Virus record (IMG/VR): IMGVR_UViG_2585427783_000002
Direction: 5' to 3' (one strand)
Length of the DNA stretch: 10,125 nucleotides
DNA from: a virus
Lineage: Duplodnaviria; Heunggongvirae; Uroviricota; Caudoviricetes
The position numbers were made by a program, and so were the translations under genes. Positions 1 through 9,083 of the stretch are shown piece by piece. How positions within the stretch are numbered: position 1 is the stretch's first letter; each line of letters begins with the position of its first letter. Below the pieces are notes generated by a model. That model saw only the letters and a list, made by a program, of their open reading frames with translations. It was not told where the DNA came from and ran no database searches.

Positions 1-1293
<1,293 letters not shown>

Positions 1294-1313: not shown

Positions 1314-1335
1314 AAAAAGCGCCTGCGGGCGCTTT
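1314..1335 (+). terminator. Hairpin just downstream of serS; weak intrinsic terminator
   Basis: A-run, then stem GCGCC (1319-1323) pairing GGCGC (1328-1332) around a 4-nt loop, followed by only three T before the sequence turns AT-rich. Confidence 0.35.
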
Positions 1336-1409: not shown

Positions 1410-1448
1410 AAAAAGCCCACAGCTTCTATGCTGTGGGCTTTGTTTTTT
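1410..1448. terminator. Bidirectional rho-independent terminator
   Basis: Perfect 9-bp stem GCCCACAGC (1415-1423) / GCTGTGGGC (1430-1438) with a 6-nt loop, flanked by an A-run upstream and TTTGTTTTTT downstream, so it reads as a terminator on either strand. Confidence 0.55.
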
Positions 1449-1472
1449 GGTGTCCTCATGAGTGAGGGAACC

Positions 1473-1504
1473 AAAAAGAAAACCCGCAGTTTTTACGCTG
1501 CGGG
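1473..1504 (-). terminator. Intrinsic terminator, probable 3' end of the hok-like mRNA
   Basis: 7-bp stem CCCGCAG (1483-1489) / CTGCGGG (1498-1504). On the minus strand it is followed by a U-tract (reverse complement of AAAAAGAAAA at 1473-1482). It lies about 95 nt downstream of the hok-like stop. Confidence 0.5.
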
Positions 1505-1598
1505 CTTGTTGTTCACGTCAACTGGAAATAGGGTGCCTTTTCGACCTTTACCCTGGCAACCGATTGACGGGGAAGTTGCCTTCCCCGTCGCGGTTTCC

Positions 1599-1739
1599 TT
1601 ACTGCTTACACTGTAAGAACGCCGCAAACTCCGCTCCCCAGAAGCTCATCCGTATTTCGCACAGTGAACCGTGCAGCATCCAGATGATGAGGATTGCCGT
1701 CACGCAGAACGTGATGGCCGTAAGCGATTTTTGCGACAT
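1599..1739 (-). CDS. Hok/Gef-family type I toxin (46 aa), not in the ORF track
   Basis: Minus-strand ATG at 1739 to TAA at 1599-1601, with an AAGGAG Shine-Dalgarno 8 nt upstream. Translation: MSQKSLTAITFCVTAILIIWMLHGSLCEIRMSFWGAEFAAFLQCKQ. It has an N-terminal hydrophobic helix, the SLCEIR motif of Hok, and an AAFL-C-K tail like HokA/HokB (family signatures recalled from memory). Confidence 0.8.
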   Translation of the reverse strand: MSQKSLTAITFCVTAILIIWMLHGSLCEIRMSFWGAEFAAFLQCKQ

Positions 1740-1869
1740 AGCACTTGCTCCTTTTCCGGAGAGGCGCTAACCTTTCACTTGTCAAGGTAATGCGGTTAGG
1801 GCCTCGGTTAAACAGAGATGTTTTCCGGGGCCTTTCCACATCTGGCCTTCGGGTATTCCCTCCGACCAT
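1606..1869 (-). CDS. mok-like overlapping frame; start codon uncertain
   Basis: An open frame in a different register covers almost the whole hok-like gene and stops 7 nt before its stop, which is the layout of mok relative to hok. There is no convincing Shine-Dalgarno at the 1869 ATG, so the true start may be an internal or non-ATG codon. Confidence 0.3.
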   Translation of the reverse strand: MVGGNTRRPDVERPRKTSLFNRGPNRITLTSERLAPLRKRSKCYVAKIAYGHHVLRDGNPHHLDAARFTVRNTDELLGSGVCGVLTV

Positions 1870-1891
1870 CAGCCGAAAGGCACCCGCGCGT

Positions 1892-1920
1892 AATCTATCG
1901 CTTTTTTGTTAATCCGGCAA
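1892..1920 (-). promoter_or_regulatory. Candidate sigma-70 promoter for the hok-like mRNA
   Basis: On the minus strand: -35 TTGCCG (plus 1915-1920), 17-bp spacer, -10 TAGATT (plus 1892-1897). A start near 1885 and the terminator near 1475 would give a transcript of about 400 nt, the size class of hok mRNAs. Prediction by motif only. Confidence 0.3.
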
Positions 1921-1929
1921 TTCTGCCTG

Positions 1930-2190
1930 TTAGTTCTGAGGTAAAGGCAAACTCATCTGATTGTTTCCCCTGTGTGAAGCTGGCAGCTCATGCCACGGGA
2001 TACCTTCTGAAGAGTGAACGGCGGAGGCGTGTTTTGATGTGAATTTATGGAAAGCTTCCAGTGTTGAGAAGCATACGCCGCATTCCAGGTTGTTACACTG
2101 GTAATACTTTTGCCGCACGGTGTTTGAATCATTTTCCGGACGACTGGTGCGGATACGGGCAGATGCGCCACAAAGCGGACAACGGAACAT
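1930..2190 (-). CDS. ogr: Ogr/Delta-family zinc-finger late transcription activator
   Basis: 86-aa ORF beginning MFRCPLCGASARIRTSR and containing YYQCNNLECG, giving the Cys-X2-Cys ... Cys-X4-Cys arrangement of P2 Ogr. AAGGGAGG Shine-Dalgarno upstream of the ATG at 2190. Confidence 0.9.
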   Translation of the reverse strand: MFRCPLCGASARIRTSRPENDSNTVRQKYYQCNNLECGVCFSTLEAFHKFTSKHASAVHSSEGIPWHELPASHRGNNQMSLPLPQN

Positions 2191-2232
2191 AGCGACCTCC
2201 CTTAACGTGGTGCTGCCGCTATTCTAAGTTGC

Positions 2233-3342
2233 TCACTCTGTTTCCGCTATCCATTCCGGGATTTTTGCCTCAAGCTCAAGCTGCGTGGTAAAGCCGCTGT
2301 TATCAATAGTGTGCTCGGCTTTTGCAATGATCCAGTCCTGATTATCAATCTCGCTTTTAAATCCTGTTACCGTACCATGCATTTCGGGGTAGAGTTCTGC
2401 ACGTCCACGCGCCAGCGTGATGGAGAATGATGCGGCTCCGCGTTGTAGCTGCTGCCACTTTGCCGCCGCTGCGCGTCTTGCTGCCTGTTCGTTCTGATAG
2501 GTCTTGCGTAACACAAACACATTGCCTTCCGCGCCTTCCATATAATCACCTTCACGGCTGCTGCTTTTCTCCTTTTTGGGTTTTGGCGGTTTGCGGCGTT
2601 TCACGCTGACTTTTTTCTTTTTCCCGTAATTAAGATCAAGCCAGTAAGCGCGTACCCCCGTATACGCTTCGCGGTCAGCAATGCGGAACTGATGGCGATC
2701 GCCACTGCTGCGCGTGATGGCGAACGAGGGCAACGGCTGGCCCTGTGCGTTCACGCCACCGCCTGGCATGATGAATAACAGATTACCGCTTTTTACCGTA
2801 GTGATTGCGCCCAGCATTTCCGCCATGCGCGTAAGGAAGGACATGTCGCTTTCTTCGGTCTGGTCGGCGTGGTCGATTTCGATATCCATCAGCATTTCGC
2901 TGATTTGTGGTTTCAGACCGTACCGATGAGCGATGGCGGATACCACGCGCTCAACGGTCACATCATGCCAGGACACCTCACGTTTAACGTTAAATTCATC
3001 CCGAAAATCTGCGCTTCTGGCTGAAACAGTCAGCCTGTCCGGCGGTCCTTCGTGAGCGATTTCATCAACAATGTAAGTGCCTTTTTCTGTCAGCGGTTCT
3101 CCTTTCCAGCCAATGAGAACCGTCAGGCGCGCGCCCCGTGGCGGTAGCAGCAACTGACCATCCGCATCATCCAGCGTGATGGTGAGCTGGTCCGCCTCAA
3201 ATCCCCGGTTGTCGGTCAGTGACAGGCTCATCAGGCACTCTGCCACGCCTGACAGCGTTTTACCCTCCGCGAGAATATCAAAATCCGGCATTTTCACGGG
3301 GTCTGTGCCCTGACTGAGCAATTGCATGGTGGTGTCGGTCAT
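2233..3342 (-). CDS. D: P2 gpD-like tail protein (late control gene D)
   Basis: Long minus-strand ORF with the gpD-type layout, including a lysine-rich internal segment. I place the start at the ATG at 3342 because GGAGGGAG sits directly upstream; the track ORF extends to 3474 but that extension has no ribosome-binding site. Confidence 0.88.
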   Translation of the reverse strand: MTDTTMQLLSQGTDPVKMPDFDILAEGKTLSGVAECLMSLSLTDNRGFEADQLTITLDDADGQLLLPPRGARLTVLIGWKGEPLTEKGTYIVDEIAHEGPPDRLTVSARSADFRDEFNVKREVSWHDVTVERVVSAIAHRYGLKPQISEMLMDIEIDHADQTEESDMSFLTRMAEMLGAITTVKSGNLLFIMPGGGVNAQGQPLPSFAITRSSGDRHQFRIADREAYTGVRAYWLDLNYGKKKKVSVKRRKPPKPKKEKSSSREGDYMEGAEGNVFVLRKTYQNEQAARRAAAAKWQQLQRGAASFSITLARGRAELYPEMHGTVTGFKSEIDNQDWIIAKAEHTIDNSGFTTQLELEAKIPEWIAETE

Positions 3343-3499: not shown

Positions 3500-4684
3500 A
3501 TGAGTGAAACTCGTTTTCATGGTGCCCGTGTTACGGAAAGTACCGACCTGGTAACAGCGATTAATGATGTTGATTCCAGCGTTATCGGTATCGTGGCAAC
3601 GGCGGATGATGCGGACGCGAAGCTGTTCCCGCTGAACAAGCCCACACTGCTGACCCGCGTCAATGACGTGCTGGGAAAATGCGGGACAACGGGGACGCTT
3701 TATCGTGCGCTTAAGGCCATCGCAGACCAGGTGAGCACAAAGGTGATCGTCGTTCGCGTGGCTGAACACAAAGAAGAAAACGGAAAGACGCAGGATCAAC
3801 TGGTTATCGGTGGTTCTGAATCTGACGGCAGCTATACGGGGATGTATGCGCTGCTTGTTGCAGAGCAGGATGAAAGCATCGGATACCGTCCGCGTATTCT
3901 GGCCGCGCCGGAGCTGGACACGGAGGCGGTGACAAAATCCCTGTGCGTGATTGCGGGTAAACTGCGCGCGTTTGTGTATGCCGCATGTCATGGTTGTAAC
4001 ACGATGGCTGAGGCGATTACCTACCGCCAGAAATTCAACGAACGTGAGGTGATGCTCTTATGGCCTGACTTCATCGCCTACAACCCGAAAAGTGGCAAAA
4101 ACGAAACGTTCCCCGCGCCTGCTTATGCGTGCGGCCTTCGTGCGTACATTGACCATGAGCAGGGTTGGCACAAATCGCTGTCCAACGTTCCGGTTAAAAA
4201 TGTGCTGGGGATGTCGAGGCATGTGTTCTGGTCGTTACAGGCCGAAGACAGTGATGCCAACAGCCTCAACAACAAAGAAATCACGACCATTATTCGTCGT
4301 AACGGGTTCCGCTTCTGGGGCAACCGCACACCGGAAACGAACGCCTACATCTTTGAGGTGTATACCCGAACCGCACAGGTGCTGGCTGATTCAATTGCGG
4401 AAGCGCAGTTTGAAACCATCGACAGTCCACTGACGCCTGCGAACGTGAAGGATGTTATCAGTGCCATCAGGGCAAAACTGGATTCACTGGTTACTGCCGG
4501 GAAACTGATTGGGGCGTCGTGCTGGTATGACGTGGTGGATAACAGCACCACGAATTTACGTCAGGGGCGTGTGCGTATTCGCTACAAATATACGCCCGTT
4601 CCGCCGCTGGAAGACATGGAGCTTTACCAGTCGTTTACTGATGAATTCTTTGGTCCCGCATTTGCGGTGCTGGGAGGTGCCTGA
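3500..4684 (+). CDS. FI: Contractile tail sheath protein (P2 FI-like)
   Basis: 394-aa ORF that aligns by eye along its length with P2 FI as I recall it, with shared motifs DQEQGWHK/DHEQGWHK, RRDGFRFWGNRT/RRNGFRFWGNRT and YTPVPPLE. Confidence 0.95.
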   Translation: MSETRFHGARVTESTDLVTAINDVDSSVIGIVATADDADAKLFPLNKPTLLTRVNDVLGKCGTTGTLYRALKAIADQVSTKVIVVRVAEHKEENGKTQDQLVIGGSESDGSYTGMYALLVAEQDESIGYRPRILAAPELDTEAVTKSLCVIAGKLRAFVYAACHGCNTMAEAITYRQKFNEREVMLLWPDFIAYNPKSGKNETFPAPAYACGLRAYIDHEQGWHKSLSNVPVKNVLGMSRHVFWSLQAEDSDANSLNNKEITTIIRRNGFRFWGNRTPETNAYIFEVYTRTAQVLADSIAEAQFETIDSPLTPANVKDVISAIRAKLDSLVTAGKLIGASCWYDVVDNSTTNLRQGRVRIRYKYTPVPPLEDMELYQSFTDEFFGPAFAVLGGA

Positions 4685-5196
4685 TGGCTGTACCAAAACA
4701 TCTTCGCTTTTTTACGCTGTTTGTGGATGGTGAAAACGAAGTGGGTAAGGTGACGTCCGTCACGCCGCCCAAACTGACGCGCAAAACCGACAGCTATCGG
4801 GGTGGTGGCATGATGGGGGCGGTAAGTATTGATCTCGGTCTGGACGACTCCGCGCTTGATGCGAGTTTTGTTATGGGGGGAGCTGTTCGTGCGCTGTTCC
4901 TTAAATATGGCGGCACGATTGACGGCACGCTGCTGCGTTTTGCGGGTGAATACTACACCGATGCAGAAAGCGATCTGTATGAAATCGAGATGCGCGGGCG
5001 TGTGACGGAAATTGATATGGGGGAGGCCAAACAGGGCGAAGCCACATCACACACTTACGCTGTCAAAAACACCTACTACAAGCTGAGCGTTAACGATCGC
5101 CCGCTGTGGGAAATCGACCTGCTGAACCACATCTACCGGAAGGACGGCAAGGACATTGTGCCCGATCGCATCCGTTCCGCGCTTGGGCTTGGCTGA
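4684..5196 (+). CDS. FII: Tail tube protein (P2 FII-like)
   Basis: 170-aa ORF whose ATG overlaps the FI stop (TGATG coupling). It contains PPKLTRK, YRGGGM and VMRGR..EIDMGE..QGE, which match the FII pattern. Confidence 0.93.
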   Translation: MAVPKHLRFFTLFVDGENEVGKVTSVTPPKLTRKTDSYRGGGMMGAVSIDLGLDDSALDASFVMGGAVRALFLKYGGTIDGTLLRFAGEYYTDAESDLYEIEMRGRVTEIDMGEAKQGEATSHTYAVKNTYYKLSVNDRPLWEIDLLNHIYRKDGKDIVPDRIRSALGLG

Positions 5197-5208
5197 TAAG
5201 TAATATGC

Positions 5209-5229
5209 AGGCGGCGCAGTGCGTCGCCT
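5209..5229 (+). other. Intercistronic stem-loop between FII and E
   Basis: Near-perfect inverted repeat AGGCGGCGCA / TGCGTCGCCT with one G-U pair and no U-tract after it, lying between the FII stop (5196) and the AAGGAG Shine-Dalgarno of E. Confidence 0.3.
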
Positions 5230-5250
5230 CTGACTGAAAGGAGACAACTG

Positions 5251-5624
5251 ATGAAAGATATCGATACTGAAACCCGGAATAACACCGTAGCGGATGATGT
5301 GACGGCAGGGGAGGATATGGCTGTCGAACGTGGTGTAAAACTTTCCCGGCCAATTGAGCGTGGTGGCGAAAAAATCACATATGTGGAGATCACCGGGGCT
5401 ATTGAGCAGGCGGGATCCCTGCGTGGTCTGTCGCTGTCTGATGTGCTGAATCTGAAAGCGGATCCATGTTCACGCTGCTGCCTCGCGTGACCTCGCCACG
5501 ACTGGATGAAGTGATGATTAAAAAAATGGCATCACGCGACTTTATTCAGTTGTGCGCTGTGGCTGTAAATTTTATGAGCGAGCCAGACTCTGGCGCGAAG
5601 AGCGTGCAGGAGACGGCAGCCTAA
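5251..5624 (+). pseudogene. E: Tail assembly chaperone E (gpE-like) with an internal frame break
   Basis: Frame 1 (5251 onward) encodes the conserved N-terminal part, including GSLRGLSLSDVLNLKAD, but stops at 5488-5490 after a non-homologous tail. The conserved continuation MFTLLPRVTSPRLDEV...AVAVNF is in the -1 frame from 5466 to 5624. This is consistent with a 1-bp deletion near 5461-5466, or a sequencing error. Confidence 0.6.
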
Positions 5625-5788
5625 TCACCCTGGTGTGCTTTGAGCACATCGAAGATCTGGTGGCGGATATTGCCGCCATTTTTAACTGGTCGCCCGCCGA
5701 AATCTTCATGATGACGCCCGGCGAAGTGGTTAGCTGGCGCGAGCGGGCGGCACTTCGCAGCGGGAATGCAGACAATGAAGACTCTTGA
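5522..5788 (+). CDS. E-prime extension frame, expected to be expressed only as an E+E-prime fusion
   Basis: Frame -1 relative to the distal E frame, open from 5522 to TGA at 5786-5788. It encodes ...IEDLVADIAAIFNWSPAEIFMMTPGEVVSWRERAALR, which resembles the gpE-prime C-terminal domain, and its end overlaps the T start. Confidence 0.5.
   Translation, partial: KNGITRLYSVVRCGCKFYERARLWREERAGDGSLITLVCFEHIEDLVADIAAIFNWSPAEIFMMTPGEVVSWRERAALRSGNADNEDS
5567..5573 (+). promoter_or_regulatory. Candidate -1 programmed frameshift heptamer A AAT TTT for E to E-prime
   Basis: It is the only X-XXY-YYZ heptamer in register with the E frame inside the window where E-prime is open (5522-5621). It sits at the ...VNF position, analogous to where I recall the P2 slippery run lying. 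Confidence 0.4.
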
Positions 5789-8582
5789 TATCCGGGTCGC
5801 TTTCAGCGCCGTTGACAGGCTGACCCGGCCTGCCGAAAACGCCCGCCGCCTGATGGGGCAGTTTGGTGACTCCATCCAGCGAACGCAGGGGGCGATCAAA
5901 AATCTCGAGCGTCAGGCGCGTTCATTTGAGCGCGCCCGTGACGCTGTCAGTAAAGCGGATGCGGGCATCGTGAAAGCACGACGCCAGCTTAACGCCCTTA
6001 ATCAGTTACAACGCACGGGTACAGTGCTCAGCGAAAAACAACAAAAGCTGATGCAGCAGTTAAGCACCCGGCTTGAACGCCTGAATGAATCGCGCACACG
6101 GGAAATTCAGAAAATGCGGGAACTTGGCGGAGAGCTGAAACGCCACGGCATTTCCCTGACAGGCAGCGATAACACCATCCAGCAGGCCATCAGACGCACC
6201 GAACAGTACAACAATCAGCTTGAACGCGAACGGCAGGCGCTTGCGCGTGTAACGCGGGCGCGTGAGCGGTATTCGCGCGCGCAGGAAACCGCGGGAAAAC
6301 TGAAAACAGGTGGTGCGCTGACAATTGGTGCGGCAGCGGCTGGCGGCTATGCTGCCGGGCGTTTTTTGCAGCCTGCGATCGGGTTCGGGAAAGAGATGTC
6401 CCGCGTTCAGGCACTGACGCGAATCGACAAGAACAGCCCGCAGTTTAAGGCGCTGCGTGAGCAGGCGTTAAAACTTGGCTCTGAAACGCAGTTCACCGCA
6501 GGCGATGCCGCCAGTGGGCAGGCATTTCTGGCAATGGCTGGCTTCACACCGCAGGCCATTCAGGCTGCGCTTCCCGGCGTGCTGAGCATGGCAACGGCTG
6601 GCGGTATGGACCTTGGCGAGACGGCAGATATTGGCTCAAATATCCTGACGCAGTTCGGCCTCTCCGCTGACCAGATGGACCGGGTCGGTGACACGCTTAC
6701 AGCAGTGTTTACCCGTACTAACACTGACCTTCGCGCACTGGGCGAAACCATGAAATATGCAGGTCCGGTGGCGGGTAAGCTGGGAATATCGCTGGAGCAG
6801 GCCGCAGCGATGGCGGGCGTGCTGGCGAATATGGGTATCAGAGGGAGTGATGCCGGGACGGCAATGCGTGCCAGCCTGGCTCGTCTGGCATCACCGCCAA
6901 AGGCGGCAGCAGAAGCGCTGAAAGAGCTGGGTGTGTCCGCCTCTGATGCGAACGGCAAAATGCGCCCGATGGAAGATGTGCTGGCCGACCTTTATAAAGC
7001 CACCCGTAAATACGGGGAAGTTGACCGGGTATCGTTCTTTAAGGACATTGCCGGGGAAGAGGCTTTCACGTCGTTTATGGCTCTCGTTGATGCGGCGGGT
7101 GACGGCTCCCTGCCCAAACTGAGAAAAGAACTTGAGGGCGCACGCGGTGAGGCTGAACGCACGGCAAAGGTTATGGCCAATAACCTTGATGGCGACCTGA
7201 AATCACTCGGCAGTGCATGGGAAGGGCTGCGTATCCGCATTGCAGATCTGATTGATGGTCCGCTGCGTTCTGTCACGCAGTGGCTCACGCGGGTGGTCTC
7301 AAAGGTGACGGCGCTGGCACAGGCCCATCCGGTACTGACGCGCCAGTTACTGATAGCAGGCGGTGCGCTGCTGGCAATGACTGCAACGGTTGGCTCGTTG
7401 TCGCTGGTTATTGGAGTGCTTCACGGGAAGCTGGCCACGTTGCGTCTTGGTTTTTCTCTCCTGACCGGATCAATGAATGCTGTCAGGCTCCTGCCAGCAC
7501 TATGGGGAATGGTGACGGGTTCCGTTTCGTTACTGGGGGGCGCTATCGGGGCGCTGTTCAGCCCGGTCGGATTGATTGCTGCTGCGTTTGTGGCTGCGGC
7601 GGTTCTCATCTGGAAATACTGGGAACCCATCAAGGCGTTTTATGCCGGGGTGTTCAGCGGGATTATGGAGCGGCTGGCCCCGTTACGCGAAACCTTTGAA
7701 CGGTTTGGTCCTGTTTTTGACGCAATCGGAAGCGGGATAAGTCAGGTGTTTAACTGGTTTAAATCGTTGCTGTCACCGATGGAGTCCAGCAAGGAAACGC
7801 TGGATAAATGTACCAGTGCTGGCGAGATATTCGGTAACGTTCTTGGCGGTGCGTTACAGCTTGTTCTGACGCCCGCAAAAATGTTGCTGGATACGCTGGC
7901 GTGGATACTTGAAAAACTCGGTGTGCTTCCGGATGAAGCGGAAAGGGCGAGAAAGAAAATCGAAGACGCACAGCGTGCGGCCATTCTTCAGGACAAGGTT
8001 GCTCTGTTTCAGGGAGACATTGCGAAAATCAATCCGCCGAAGTCTGCGGAAAATGGCAATGGCACCGGAGGTGATAAACCCAAAGACAATAAACCGCTCA
8101 CAGACAGCAATACCGGTACGCTACGCAGACTCAGCAAAATTGCTGATAACACAGGTAAGCTGGTTGATGAGACGAAAAAACGTATTGGCCCCGGCGATAT
8201 TGTCTTTAAGAACCTGCCCCGCGCACTTGCCGTTCGTGGGGAGTGGCAGGAGCGGAAGATTGTGCAGGTCAGTAAGCCTGCCCCCGCAATTAATATCACA
8301 CCCGTGGTCCCGGCTCCGCTGCCTCCGGCGCTGGTCCCTGTTGTTGCGGCCAGCTCCCGCCCGGTGGCGGAGGCCATACGATCTCCAGTGGCATCAGTTC
8401 CTGTAACTTCCCGTAACCGGGAGCCTGTTGCCTCCGGATTTGGTGGTGAAATTCATGTTCATCTGCATAACGTTGTTACGCAGAATCCCCGCGAACTGGC
8501 GAAACTGGTCGGTGAAATGGTCAGGGCAGAAATGGAACGGCGCGCCCGTGCCGGGCGTGGCAGTTTTTACGATAAAGATTGA
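5766..8582 (+). CDS. T: Tail tape measure protein (P2 gpT-like)
   Basis: 938-aa ORF with a coiled-coil-rich N-terminal region, a glycine/alanine-rich hydrophobic central segment and a proline-rich C-terminus, sitting between E/E-prime and U. The start could instead be the ATG at 5775. Confidence 0.9.
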   Translation: MQTMKTLDIRVAFSAVDRLTRPAENARRLMGQFGDSIQRTQGAIKNLERQARSFERARDAVSKADAGIVKARRQLNALNQLQRTGTVLSEKQQKLMQQLSTRLERLNESRTREIQKMRELGGELKRHGISLTGSDNTIQQAIRRTEQYNNQLERERQALARVTRARERYSRAQETAGKLKTGGALTIGAAAAGGYAAGRFLQPAIGFGKEMSRVQALTRIDKNSPQFKALREQALKLGSETQFTAGDAASGQAFLAMAGFTPQAIQAALPGVLSMATAGGMDLGETADIGSNILTQFGLSADQMDRVGDTLTAVFTRTNTDLRALGETMKYAGPVAGKLGISLEQAAAMAGVLANMGIRGSDAGTAMRASLARLASPPKAAAEALKELGVSASDANGKMRPMEDVLADLYKATRKYGEVDRVSFFKDIAGEEAFTSFMALVDAAGDGSLPKLRKELEGARGEAERTAKVMANNLDGDLKSLGSAWEGLRIRIADLIDGPLRSVTQWLTRVVSKVTALAQAHPVLTRQLLIAGGALLAMTATVGSLSLVIGVLHGKLATLRLGFSLLTGSMNAVRLLPALWGMVTGSVSLLGGAIGALFSPVGLIAAAFVAAAVLIWKYWEPIKAFYAGVFSGIMERLAPLRETFERFGPVFDAIGSGISQVFNWFKSLLSPMESSKETLDKCTSAGEIFGNVLGGALQLVLTPAKMLLDTLAWILEKLGVLPDEAERARKKIEDAQRAAILQDKVALFQGDIAKINPPKSAENGNGTGGDKPKDNKPLTDSNTGTLRRLSKIADNTGKLVDETKKRIGPGDIVFKNLPRALAVRGEWQERKIVQVSKPAPAINITPVVPAPLPPALVPVVAASSRPVAEAIRSPVASVPVTSRNREPVASGFGGEIHVHLHNVVTQNPRELAKLVGEMVRAEMERRARAGRGSFYDKD

Positions 8583-8594
8583 GGAGTCATGGCC

Positions 8595-9083
8595 ATGATG
8601 ATGATCTACGGCATGTTTGTTTTTGAGCTGCGCACGCTGCCGCATCAGCAGTTACAGCAAAACAAAAGCTGGCGGCATGTGAAAAATGAACGCGTTAACC
8701 GTTCAGCAAGCTGGCAGTATATCGGTGCAGGTGATGATCGCATCGTTCTTTCTGGTGTGCTTTATCCTGAAATTACAGGTGGCGAAGTGTCGCTGTCGCT
8801 GCTGACCACGCAGGCGTATACAGGACGACCCTGGCCTTTGATTGATGGCGTCGGGCAGATTTACGGCATGTATGTCCTGACCGGAACGAACACGACCCGT
8901 TCCGAGTTTGATCGCTACGGTAAGGCGAAAAAGATAGAATTTTCACTGACCCTTGAACGCTGTGATGAGGATTTGCGGGAGCGCCTGCAATCCTCATCGT
9001 TCAGCGATATGCTGTCCGGCTTCAAAGATAAAGTGACATCATCCCTTAACAGCGCGGCCAGTTCAGTTAAAGGGCTGTTCTGA
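8595..9083 (+). CDS. U: Tail protein U (P2 gpU-like)
   Basis: Translation from 8595 begins MMMIYGMFVFELRTLPHQ, matching the gpU N-terminus as I recall it. AGGAG at 8582-8586 is spaced 8 nt from this ATG; the 8589 ATG in the track is only 2 nt from it. Confidence 0.88.
   Translation: MMMIYGMFVFELRTLPHQQLQQNKSWRHVKNERVNRSASWQYIGAGDDRIVLSGVLYPEITGGEVSLSLLTTQAYTGRPWPLIDGVGQIYGMYVLTGTNTTRSEFDRYGKAKKIEFSLTLERCDEDLRERLQSSSFSDMLSGFKDKVTSSLNSAASSVKGLF

What the first reader, a model, noticed from the sequence alone, without database searches (positions are those of the whole stretch)
1473..1930. Hidden Hok/Gef-family toxin locus between ogr and the host junction
A 46-aa minus-strand ORF (1599..1739), too short for the supplied ORF track, encodes a single-helix membrane peptide with the SLCEIR core and an AAFL-C-K tail typical of Hok family toxins. 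Around it are the expected parts of a hok-type locus: an overlapping mok-like frame ending 7 nt before the toxin stop, a strong Shine-Dalgarno, a candidate promoter giving a transcript of about 400 nt, and a downstream terminator. Its position directly downstream of ogr at the prophage edge suggests phage cargo rather than a host gene. Plasmid R1 hok/sok is known to exclude phage T4, so this could act as a prophage-borne addiction or abortive-infection module.
Basis: partly seen in the sequence, partly recalled or inferred. Interest (0 to 1): 0.8.

Follow-up and report, generated by a model that had tools for sequence, protein, structure and literature searches.

The report
Known Hok toxin locus in prophage
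The small gene is real and is a Hok-type membrane toxin with its antisense-RNA control region, carried at the end of a P2-like prophage, but public databases already annotate it and a recent preprint has already tested this exact peptide for toxicity, so it is ordinary.

Summary

**What it is**
- The 46-aa ORF at 1599..1739(-) passes the Pfam Hok/Gef threshold.
- It sits in a roughly 411-nt hok-type mRNA (1885 to about 1475). That mRNA has a conserved -10 box, a 5'/3' fold-back helix, a Shine-Dalgarno (SD) sequence locked in a hairpin, and a terminator.
- A predicted Sok-like antisense RNA of about 58 nt lies opposite the leader.
- The RNA structure holds across 36 distinct loci from Escherichia, Citrobacter, Klebsiella and Salmonella, with compensatory base changes.

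**Where it sits**
- It lies inside a 36-kb P2-like prophage whose att core is the serS terminator (1316-1335).
- The same ogr-hok-junction order occurs in P88-like phages and in a Salmonella prophage.

**One part fails**
- The mok-like frame exists in the window but is not conserved.
- 18 of 37 relatives have no leader ORF reaching the hok SD. R1-type hok and hokW both have one.

**Prior knowledge**
- RefSeq names this exact protein "Hok/Gef family protein".
- About 28% of complete E. coli genomes carry the locus.
- The identical peptide is entry 72_1621 in a 2025-26 preprint's toxicity assays, where only three other entries were reported non-toxic.

Its biological role in P2-like prophages (retention, phage exclusion or lysis help) is untested.

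The parts
1599..1739 (-). hok-type toxin gene, 46 aa. One N-terminal hydrophobic helix, an SLCE core and an AAFLQCK tail.
   Evidence: ORF. Pfam HOK_GEF 29.9 bits, above the cut-off of 22. PHROG 251, E 1e-22. RefSeq WP_000078916.1. Identical to preprint entry 72_1621.
1475..1885 (-). Predicted full-length hok mRNA, about 411 nt.
   Evidence: The 5' end is set by the Rfam RF01794 match starting at 1885 and by the conserved GGGTGCC 6-7 nt after the -10 box. The 3' end is set by the terminator. MFE -181 kcal/mol, z -8.0.
1892..1920 (-). Candidate hok promoter: -35 TTGCCG (1915-1920), 17-nt spacer, -10 TAGATT (1892-1897).
   Evidence: Read from the sequence. The -10 box (TAGATT, TAGAAT or TAAATT) sits at a fixed distance in 22 of 23 upstream variants. 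The strict consensus scan does not call it.
1872..1885 (-). 5' end element, equivalent to tac. It pairs with the 3' fbi-like element in the full-length mRNA and with mRNA 47-59 in the shortened form.
   Evidence: The closing helix appears in the MFE and in the consensus of 36 loci. The same 5' bases covary with both partners.
1531..1544 (-). fbi-like 3' element (TCGAAAAGGCACCC), complementary to the mRNA 5' end.
   Evidence: Helices 1-2 of the consensus structure are 99-100% paired, with 4 pairs changed on both sides.
1738..1769 (-). Hairpin that locks the hok SD (AAGGAG, 1748-1753) against CUCUCC, closed right next to the AUG.
   Evidence: Consensus helices 8-9 are 96-99% paired in 36 loci.
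1780..1837 (+). Predicted Sok-like antisense RNA, about 58 nt. It has a single-stranded 5' tail of at least 10 nt and a long hairpin (1800-1832).
   Evidence: Fold -26.4 kcal/mol, z -4.05. It is complementary to mRNA 49-106. The 5'-tail target (about 1788-1796) is the most variable part of the leader. The ends are inferred, with no transcript data.
1745..1773 (+). Predicted Sok promoter: -35 TTGCTC (1745-1750), 17-nt spacer, -10 TAACCT (1768-1773). It overlaps the hok SD region.
   Evidence: Both hexamers are conserved in all 25 variants. The sequence diverges just downstream of the predicted start. The strict scan does not call it.
1475..1507 (-). Intrinsic terminator of the hok mRNA.
   Evidence: Terminator scan: 10-pair stem plus a T run.
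1606..1869 (-). mok-like open frame of 87 codons. It is present here but is doubtful as a functional part.
   Evidence: Listed. It is not conserved: stops at -43, -16 or +80 in relatives, and no canonical start in 18 of 37 loci.
1316..1335 (.). attR core, AAAGCGCCTGCGGGCGCTTT, which is the serS terminator. The prophage begins at 1336.
   Evidence: The same 20 bp are repeated beside the integrase gene and dmsA in the same chromosome. Identity to K-12 ends at 1335.
1930..2190 (-). Ogr/Delta-like late-gene activator, the upstream neighbour (context).
   Evidence: Pfam Ogr_Delta 52.5 bits. Annotated in RefSeq.

Best explanation
This is an intact hok/sok-type type I toxin-antitoxin module carried as accessory cargo at the att-proximal end of a P2-like prophage.

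**How it most likely works**
- A weak promoter makes a stable mRNA of about 411 nt.
- In the full-length form the 5' end pairs with a 3' element. The hok SD and start codon are locked in hairpins, so the RNA is inert.
- Inferred: slow 3' trimming removes the 3' partner. The 5' end then switches to an internal partner (mRNA 47-59). This opens the antisense target hairpin and allows the SD to be freed.
- A short, unstable Sok-like antisense RNA of about 58 nt is made from a promoter inside the hok leader. It pairs with mRNA 49-106 and keeps the activated mRNA silent or destroys it.
- If Sok supply stops, the 46-aa Hok peptide is made. It inserts into the inner membrane and collapses it.

**Difference from plasmid R1**
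A mok leader frame is not conserved here, so control is probably by RNA refolding rather than by translational coupling. This is inferred.

**Biological role**
The most likely role is selfish retention of the prophage by killing cells that lose it. This is inferred from plasmid hok/sok and is not shown here.
For: **Toxin identity**
- Pfam score is above its cut-off.
- PHROG 251 matches.
- The residues that the preprint reports as conserved in Hok correspond, by my reading at an offset of 4, to C12, T14, L26, C27, E28 and E37 here.
- The identical peptide was in a screen of 45 homologues in which only three other entries were non-toxic.

**RNA anatomy**
- Rfam sok/hok-leader match, E 1.4e-8.
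- The MFE contains the 5'/3' closure, z -8.
- The consensus of 36 loci is 98.2% paired, with 20 compensatory pairs against 9.2 in shuffles.
- The 5' bases covary with both alternative partners.
- Both promoters' -10 boxes are conserved.
- The Sok hairpin folds with z -4.
- The most variable leader stretch is the predicted Sok-tail target.

**Cargo status**
- The locus lies inside the att repeats.
- It holds the same position in P88-like phages and in a Salmonella P2-like prophage.

**mok**
The leader frame is absent in 18 of 37 loci, while the controls (R1-type hok and hokW) both show ATG at -57 with an SD.
Against: - There is no transcript, processing or toxicity data for this locus in its native context.
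- Both promoters fall below a strict sigma-70 consensus scan.
- The Rfam score (48.4) is under the family's gathering score (59).
- The helix proposed to free the SD after trimming is conserved but shows no compensatory change.
- In the window's own clade, a GUG at mRNA 47-49 with an upstream GAAGG could still start a mok-like frame.
- Many chromosomal hok loci in K-12 are inactive, according to the preprint's discussion.
- The retention role is by analogy only. The one prophage hok/sok studied had a different effect.
Confidence: 0.8

Rival explanations
1. The same type I module acts mainly as abortive infection or superinfection exclusion. An incoming lytic phage shuts off host transcription, Sok decays, Hok kills the cell early and the phage burst is lost.
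For: R1 hok/sok on a high-copy plasmid lowered T4 plating by 42% and plaque size by about 85%, as cited. Prophages often carry defence cargo, and hok is enriched four-fold in prophages.
Against: PADLOC has no matching model. The preprint found no enrichment of hok near defence systems (the heading of its section 8, and its discussion). The R1 effect was modest and came from a multicopy plasmid. Nothing has been tested for this locus.
Confidence: 0.2
2. The module helps the prophage's own lytic cycle. On induction Sok falls, Hok damages the inner membrane and progeny are released earlier or in greater number, as shown for hokW-sokW of Stx2 prophage Sp5.
For: In Sp5, mitomycin C removed sokW RNA, HokW appeared in the inner membrane, and deleting the locus halved phage release. 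Sp5 also carries a member of the present 46-aa subfamily next to lom.
Against: HokW belongs to a different Hok cluster, the HokD type (entry 35_712). From my own knowledge, P2-like prophages are generally not SOS-inducible, so the trigger seen in Sp5 may not apply. The prophage has its own holin, endolysin and spanin genes.
Confidence: 0.15
3. The locus is a silent passenger. It is transcribed poorly or never activated, like several chromosomal hok copies of E. coli K-12, and is kept only by hitch-hiking with the prophage.
For: Both promoters are weak by consensus. Some relatives are clearly decayed, for example Salmonella L091, which lacks the promoter and the 5' element. Truncated "partial" Hok calls are common.
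Against: The ORF is intact. RNA pairings are kept by compensatory changes across four genera. The Hok peptide and both -10 boxes are conserved. The peptide was among those reported toxic.
Confidence: 0.1

Closest known systems
hok/mok/sok of plasmid R1 (the IncFII hok/sok type)
   Same: - Small membrane toxin with the SLCEIR core, in the same Pfam family.
- mRNA of about 400 nt with 5'/3' fold-back pairing.
- SD hidden in a hairpin.
- Antisense RNA promoter inside the leader, overlapping the hok SD region, with the same 17-nt spacing. In the R1 type it reads TTGCGC and TATCCT (L098).
- Terminator just after the 3' pairing element.
   Different: - The toxin is 46 aa rather than 52 and is only distantly related. 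The NCBIfam Hok subfamily model scores 21.6 against a cut-off of 73.
- No conserved mok. The R1-type control has ATG at -57 behind GAGG reading through hok. Here frame 0 is closed by TAG at -30, and 18 of 37 loci have no such leader ORF.
- It is carried on a prophage, not a plasmid.
Hok cluster 72 of Escalera-Maurer et al. (bioRxiv 10.1101/2025.08.07.668861), entries 72_1621 and 72_1589
   Same: 72_1621 is identical in sequence to the window's peptide. It is listed as a high-abundance cluster and was cloned (LRP137) for arabinose-induced toxicity assays. Only three other entries were non-toxic.
   Different: The preprint analysed coding sequences only. It states that mok, Sok and mRNA elements were not analysed. 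It does not mention P2-like phages.
hokW-sokW of Stx2 prophage Sp5 (Takada et al. 2021, PMC8621323)
   Same: It is a prophage-borne hok/sok type I module. Toxin, antisense antitoxin and inner-membrane location were shown experimentally.
   Different: - HokW is 51 aa and belongs to the HokD-type cluster (35_712).
- It has an upstream in-frame ATG at -57 with an SD.
- It lies elsewhere in Sp5 (57.5-57.8 kb), while the window's Sp5 relative lies next to lom (44.5-44.9 kb).
- Its host is a lambdoid, SOS-inducible phage.
HokA of E. coli K-12
   Same: It is the best NCBIfam match, E 2e-8. It shares the WM..SLCE..AAFL.CK pattern.
   Different: The score of 34 is far below the equivalog cut-off of 89, so this is not a HokA orthologue. 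HokA is 50 aa and chromosomal, and its locus is disrupted by IS150.

Membership tests
Hok/Gef toxin family (Pfam PF01848) | The protein matches the family HMM above the curated gathering score. | tested here: met
   29.9 bits against 22, E 4.1e-7, residues 7-44 on profile positions 5-42 of 42.
Hok/Gef toxin family (Pfam PF01848) | Conserved residues of the Hok logo (C16, T18, L30, C31, E32, E41) and a second Cys or Tyr near the C-terminus. | tested here: met
   At an offset of 4 these are C12, T14, L26, C27, E28, E37 and C44 in the window peptide. C27, E37 and C44 are invariant, and L26 and E28 nearly so, in 31 subfamily members. The offset is my own reading.
Hok/Gef toxin family (Pfam PF01848) | Toxic to E. 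coli when expressed. | not testable with these tools
   Literature only. The identical peptide is 72_1621 (LRP137) in Table S2. The text names only 19_179, 60_1482 and 69_1540 as non-toxic among 45 tested.
HokA orthologue group (NCBIfam NF007290) | Score at or above the equivalog cut-off. | tested here: not met
   34 bits against 89. It is a separate cluster (cluster 72).
[quoted passage not shown] | The leader RNA is homologous to the known hok/sok leader (Rfam RF01794). | tested here: inconclusive
   Full-length match 1885..1726(-), E 1.4e-8, but 48.4 bits is below the gathering score of 59.
[quoted passage not shown] | 5' (tac) and 3' (fbi) fold-back pairing that closes the full-length mRNA. 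| tested here: met
   Present in the MFE and in the consensus of 36 loci. It is 99-100% paired, with 4 pairs changed on both sides.
[quoted passage not shown] | An alternative pairing of the 5' end, allowing a conformational switch after 3' processing. | tested here: met
   The 5' end pairs with columns 47-59 in the shortened RNA. That helix is 98.1% paired, with 3 pairs changed on both sides, and involves the same 5' bases that covary with fbi. The 3' processing itself is not testable here.
[quoted passage not shown] | A cis-encoded antisense RNA (Sok) with its own promoter in the hok leader. | tested here: inconclusive
   The -35 and -10 boxes with a 17-nt spacer and a stable hairpin are conserved. 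The promoter is below the strict scan threshold and there are no expression data.
[quoted passage not shown] | A mok leader reading frame with its own SD inside the Sok target, reading through the hok start. | tested here: not met
   The frame is open in the window. However, 18 of 37 relatives have no canonical-start leader ORF reaching the hok SD, and frame 0 is closed by TAG at -30 in 32 of 37. The R1-type hok and hokW controls both show ATG at -57 with an SD.

The most novel reading that the evidence does not exclude
This Hok subfamily (cluster 72) may work without any mok leader frame. After 3' trimming, the freed 3' arm of the Sok-target hairpin (GAGGCCCUAACC) would capture the anti-SD strand (GGUUAGCGCCUC) and expose the hok SD directly. 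Sok would then block hok by occupying that arm rather than by blocking mok translation. The module would also be a conserved att-proximal cargo of P2-like prophages with a role of its own, either retention or exclusion.
Probability: 0.3. Interest if true: 0.4.

Novelty: already known. Interest (0 to 1): 0.15.

Why it matters
As a gene discovery it does not matter much.
- The protein is already named in RefSeq.
- The locus is present in roughly a quarter of complete E. coli genomes.
- It is catalogued in a recent survey of Hok toxins, and the exact peptide has been put through a toxicity assay.

Two smaller points could be of use to specialists.
- This common prophage-borne Hok subfamily seems to lack the mok leader frame that the textbook R1 model requires. 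If so, it would be a natural test case for mok-independent control.
- Nobody appears to have asked what a hok/sok module does for a P2-like prophage, which is not SOS-inducible.

Tried and rejected
- **Strict promoter scan of 1300-2000:** it found no promoter. I kept both promoters only because their -10 boxes hold position across variants.
- **HokA orthology:** rejected, because the score is far below the cut-off.
- **hokW as the direct homologue:** rejected. The roughly 80% identical Stx-phage locus lies next to lom and encodes a 46-aa peptide. The real hokW lies 13 kb away and belongs to the HokD cluster.
- **PADLOC defence models:** no match.
- **Genome-collection DNA pattern scan:** only 4 loci. 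The 80 IMG/VR loci kept all encode the identical peptide. Diversity came instead from exact-protein look-ups.
- **First mok control:** I looked only at frames +1 and +2 and found nothing even in R1-type hok and hokW. Including frame 0 showed their ATG at -57, which validated the test.
- **SD-freeing helix (mRNA 81-92 with 114-125):** it is conserved but has no compensatory changes, so it stays a hypothesis.
- **Region 1336-1470:** it matches neither K-12 nor P88. It was resolved as this prophage's own att arm by finding the 20-bp repeat at the integrase end.

Full report
**1. Observation**

The window starts with serS (1..1293, +). On the minus strand it then holds a 46-aa ORF at 1599..1739, an Ogr/Delta-like gene at 1930..2190, gpD, and tail genes.

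- The peptide is MSQKSLTAITFCVTAILIIWMLHGSLCEIRMSFWGAEFAAFLQCKQ.
- It scores 29.9 bits on Pfam HOK_GEF against a gathering score of 22, E 4e-7.
- It matches PHROG 251 at E 1e-22.
- NCBIfam's best model is HokA, at 34 bits against a cut-off of 89. It is therefore a Hok-family member but not a HokA orthologue.

- The SD is AAGGAG, 8 nt before the ATG.
- The promoter is TTGCCG, 17 nt, TAGATT at 1920-1892.
- The terminator is at 1507-1480 with a T run.
- An 87-codon frame at 1606..1869 ends 7 nt before the hok stop.

**2. RNA anatomy**

*Leader and fold*
- Rfam's sok family (RF01794) matches 1885..1726 on the hok strand over its full length, E 1.4e-8. The score of 48.4 bits is below the gathering score of 59.
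- The match starts at G1885, 6-7 nt after the -10 box.
- The predicted 411-nt mRNA folds to -181 kcal/mol (z -8.0). A helix joins its first 15 nt to a 3' element at 1531-1544.

*Comparison across loci*

I collected 36 distinct loci of this 46-aa subfamily.
- They include E. coli P2-like prophages and phages, the Stx phage Sp5, and Citrobacter.
- They also include Klebsiella oxytoca and several Salmonella.

The RNAalifold consensus keeps three features.
- The 5'/3' closing helix.
- A hairpin that pairs the SD with CUCUCC right beside the AUG.
- A long pairing of codons 2-6 with the strongly conserved C-terminal coding region.

On this structure 98.2% of cells are paired. Twenty pairs show changes on both sides, against 9.2 in shuffles and 1-7 in slid controls.

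*Conformational switch*
- When the 3' 40 nt are removed, the 5' end pairs instead with mRNA 47-59.
- This alternative helix is 98.1% paired.
- Its compensatory changes involve the same 5' bases that covary with the 3' partner.
- That pattern is what a conformational switch of the R1 hok type would leave.

*Antisense RNA*
- On the plus strand, TTGCTC (1745-1750), 17 nt, TAACCT (1768-1773) is conserved in all 25 variants.
- The sequence diverges immediately downstream of the predicted start.
- The predicted RNA of about 58 nt (about 1780-1837) has a free 5' tail and a -26 kcal/mol hairpin, z -4.
- The most variable stretch of the leader (about 1788-1796) is the target of that tail. This fits a specificity determinant.
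- Neither promoter reaches the strict consensus scan, and there are no transcript data. Both RNAs are predictions.

**3. mok**

The mok-like frame is the one part that does not hold up.
- Among 37 unique loci, many encoding the identical toxin, the frame is cut by stops at -43, -16 or -13, or by a TGA at +80. That TGA is created by a synonymous TGC-to-TGT change in hok.
- Eighteen loci have no ATG, GTG or TTG leader ORF in any frame that reaches the hok SD.
- Frame 0 is closed by TAG at -30 in 32 of 37 loci.
- The same test on an R1-type IncFII hok and on hokW finds ATG at -57 behind a GAGG SD, reading through hok.
- In the window's own clade, a GUG at mRNA 47-49 after GAAGG could still start such a frame. 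mok-type coupling is therefore not excluded for this particular copy.

**4. Context**

- Identity to K-12 ends at 1335.
- The 20 bp AAAGCGCCTGCGGGCGCTTT (1316-1335, the serS terminator) recur beside the integrase gene and dmsA in the same chromosome.
- The prophage therefore runs from 1336 for 36.3 kb, and the hok locus lies wholly inside it.
- The same locus follows gpD and ogr in phages P88, P884B11, 500465-2, Chuche, PhiR44_2 and Shae_phiSM, at 91-96% identity.
- The order U-D-ogr-hok-host also occurs in a Salmonella P2-like prophage next to ihfA/pheT.
- Other members sit at the edges of other elements, sometimes in tandem.

**5. Prior knowledge**

- RefSeq annotates the exact protein as WP_000078916.1, "Hok/Gef family protein".
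- 1548 of 5426 complete E. coli genomes match the locus, 1278 of them over at least 80% of it. Every sampled match carries that name.
- The protein search returns only "Hok/Gef family protein" names.
- A 2025-26 preprint catalogues 32,532 Hok loci and finds hok enriched four-fold in prophages, with 6290 copies in IMG/VR.
- Its Table S2 lists the identical peptide as 72_1621, cloned as LRP137. The text says that only three other entries of the 45 tested were non-toxic.
- The preprint states that it did not analyse mok, Sok or mRNA elements.

**6. Mechanism and role**

The best-supported reading is an intact hok/sok-type type I module.
- The full-length mRNA is inert.
- It is activated by 3' trimming and a 5'-end switch.
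- It is held in check by a short antisense RNA.
- The membrane toxin is released when antisense supply fails.

The steps shown here are the sequence and structure features and their conservation. The steps inferred are processing, Sok action and killing in the native context.

The biological role cannot be decided by computation.
- I rank prophage retention first, by analogy with plasmid hok/sok.
- Phage exclusion comes second, based on the R1 effect on T4 cited.
- Help with lysis comes third, as for hokW-sokW.
- A silent passenger comes last.

**7. Verdict**

The finding is real and correctly interpreted, but it is already known. The only mildly new points are the apparent lack of a conserved mok and the unstudied role in P2-like prophages.

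Noticed in passing
window 1316-1335, and L099 13100-13119: The prophage att core is a 20-bp direct repeat that coincides with the serS transcription terminator hairpin. Integration regenerates the terminator at both ends.
   Followed up: yes
window 3500-9083 versus 1599-3342; L101: The tail block FI-FII-E-T-U is on the plus strand, inverted relative to D-ogr-hok and the other late genes. A recombinase-family (invertase-like) gene and an inverted tail-fibre segment lie just beyond U. From memory, the P2 order is FI FII E T U D ogr on one strand.
   Followed up: partly
L099 2371-3122 (same prophage, outside the window): The prophage also carries a Phd/YefM-Doc type II toxin-antitoxin pair near the portal gene. 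It therefore holds two addiction-type modules.
   Followed up: no
L003 1566-1706 and L100 772-927 (phage VT2-Sakai/Sp5): Stx2 phage Sp5 carries two different hok loci. One is the studied hokW, near 57.5-57.8 kb. The other is a 46-aa cluster-72 copy next to lom, near 44.5-44.9 kb. The second is unannotated in the original record.
   Followed up: partly
L095 3001-3631; L096 3001-3635: Two Salmonella contigs carry tandem pairs of complete cluster-72 hok loci about 490 bp apart. The predicted Sok-tail targets of the two copies differ.
   Followed up: no
L091 2801-3141: A Salmonella copy keeps the hok ORF and SD hairpin but has lost the promoter and the 5' GGGTGCC pairing element. It is probably a decaying locus.
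   Followed up: no
window 1412-1450: A second strong hairpin, flanked by runs of A (upstream) and T (downstream), lies in the phage att arm between the hok terminator and serS. It looks like a bidirectional terminator that insulates the prophage end.
   Followed up: no
window 1930-2190: The Ogr-like protein is 86 aa. It scores 44.8 bits against the NCBIfam equivalog cut-off of 116, so it is a divergent Ogr/Delta relative rather than P2 Ogr itself.
   Followed up: no
L098 344-559 (IncFII plasmid hok/sok): In this R1-type plasmid copy, and in hokW, the upstream ATG at -57 is in the same frame as hok. The 'mok' product would therefore be an N-terminally extended Hok rather than a product of a different frame.
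   Followed up: partly
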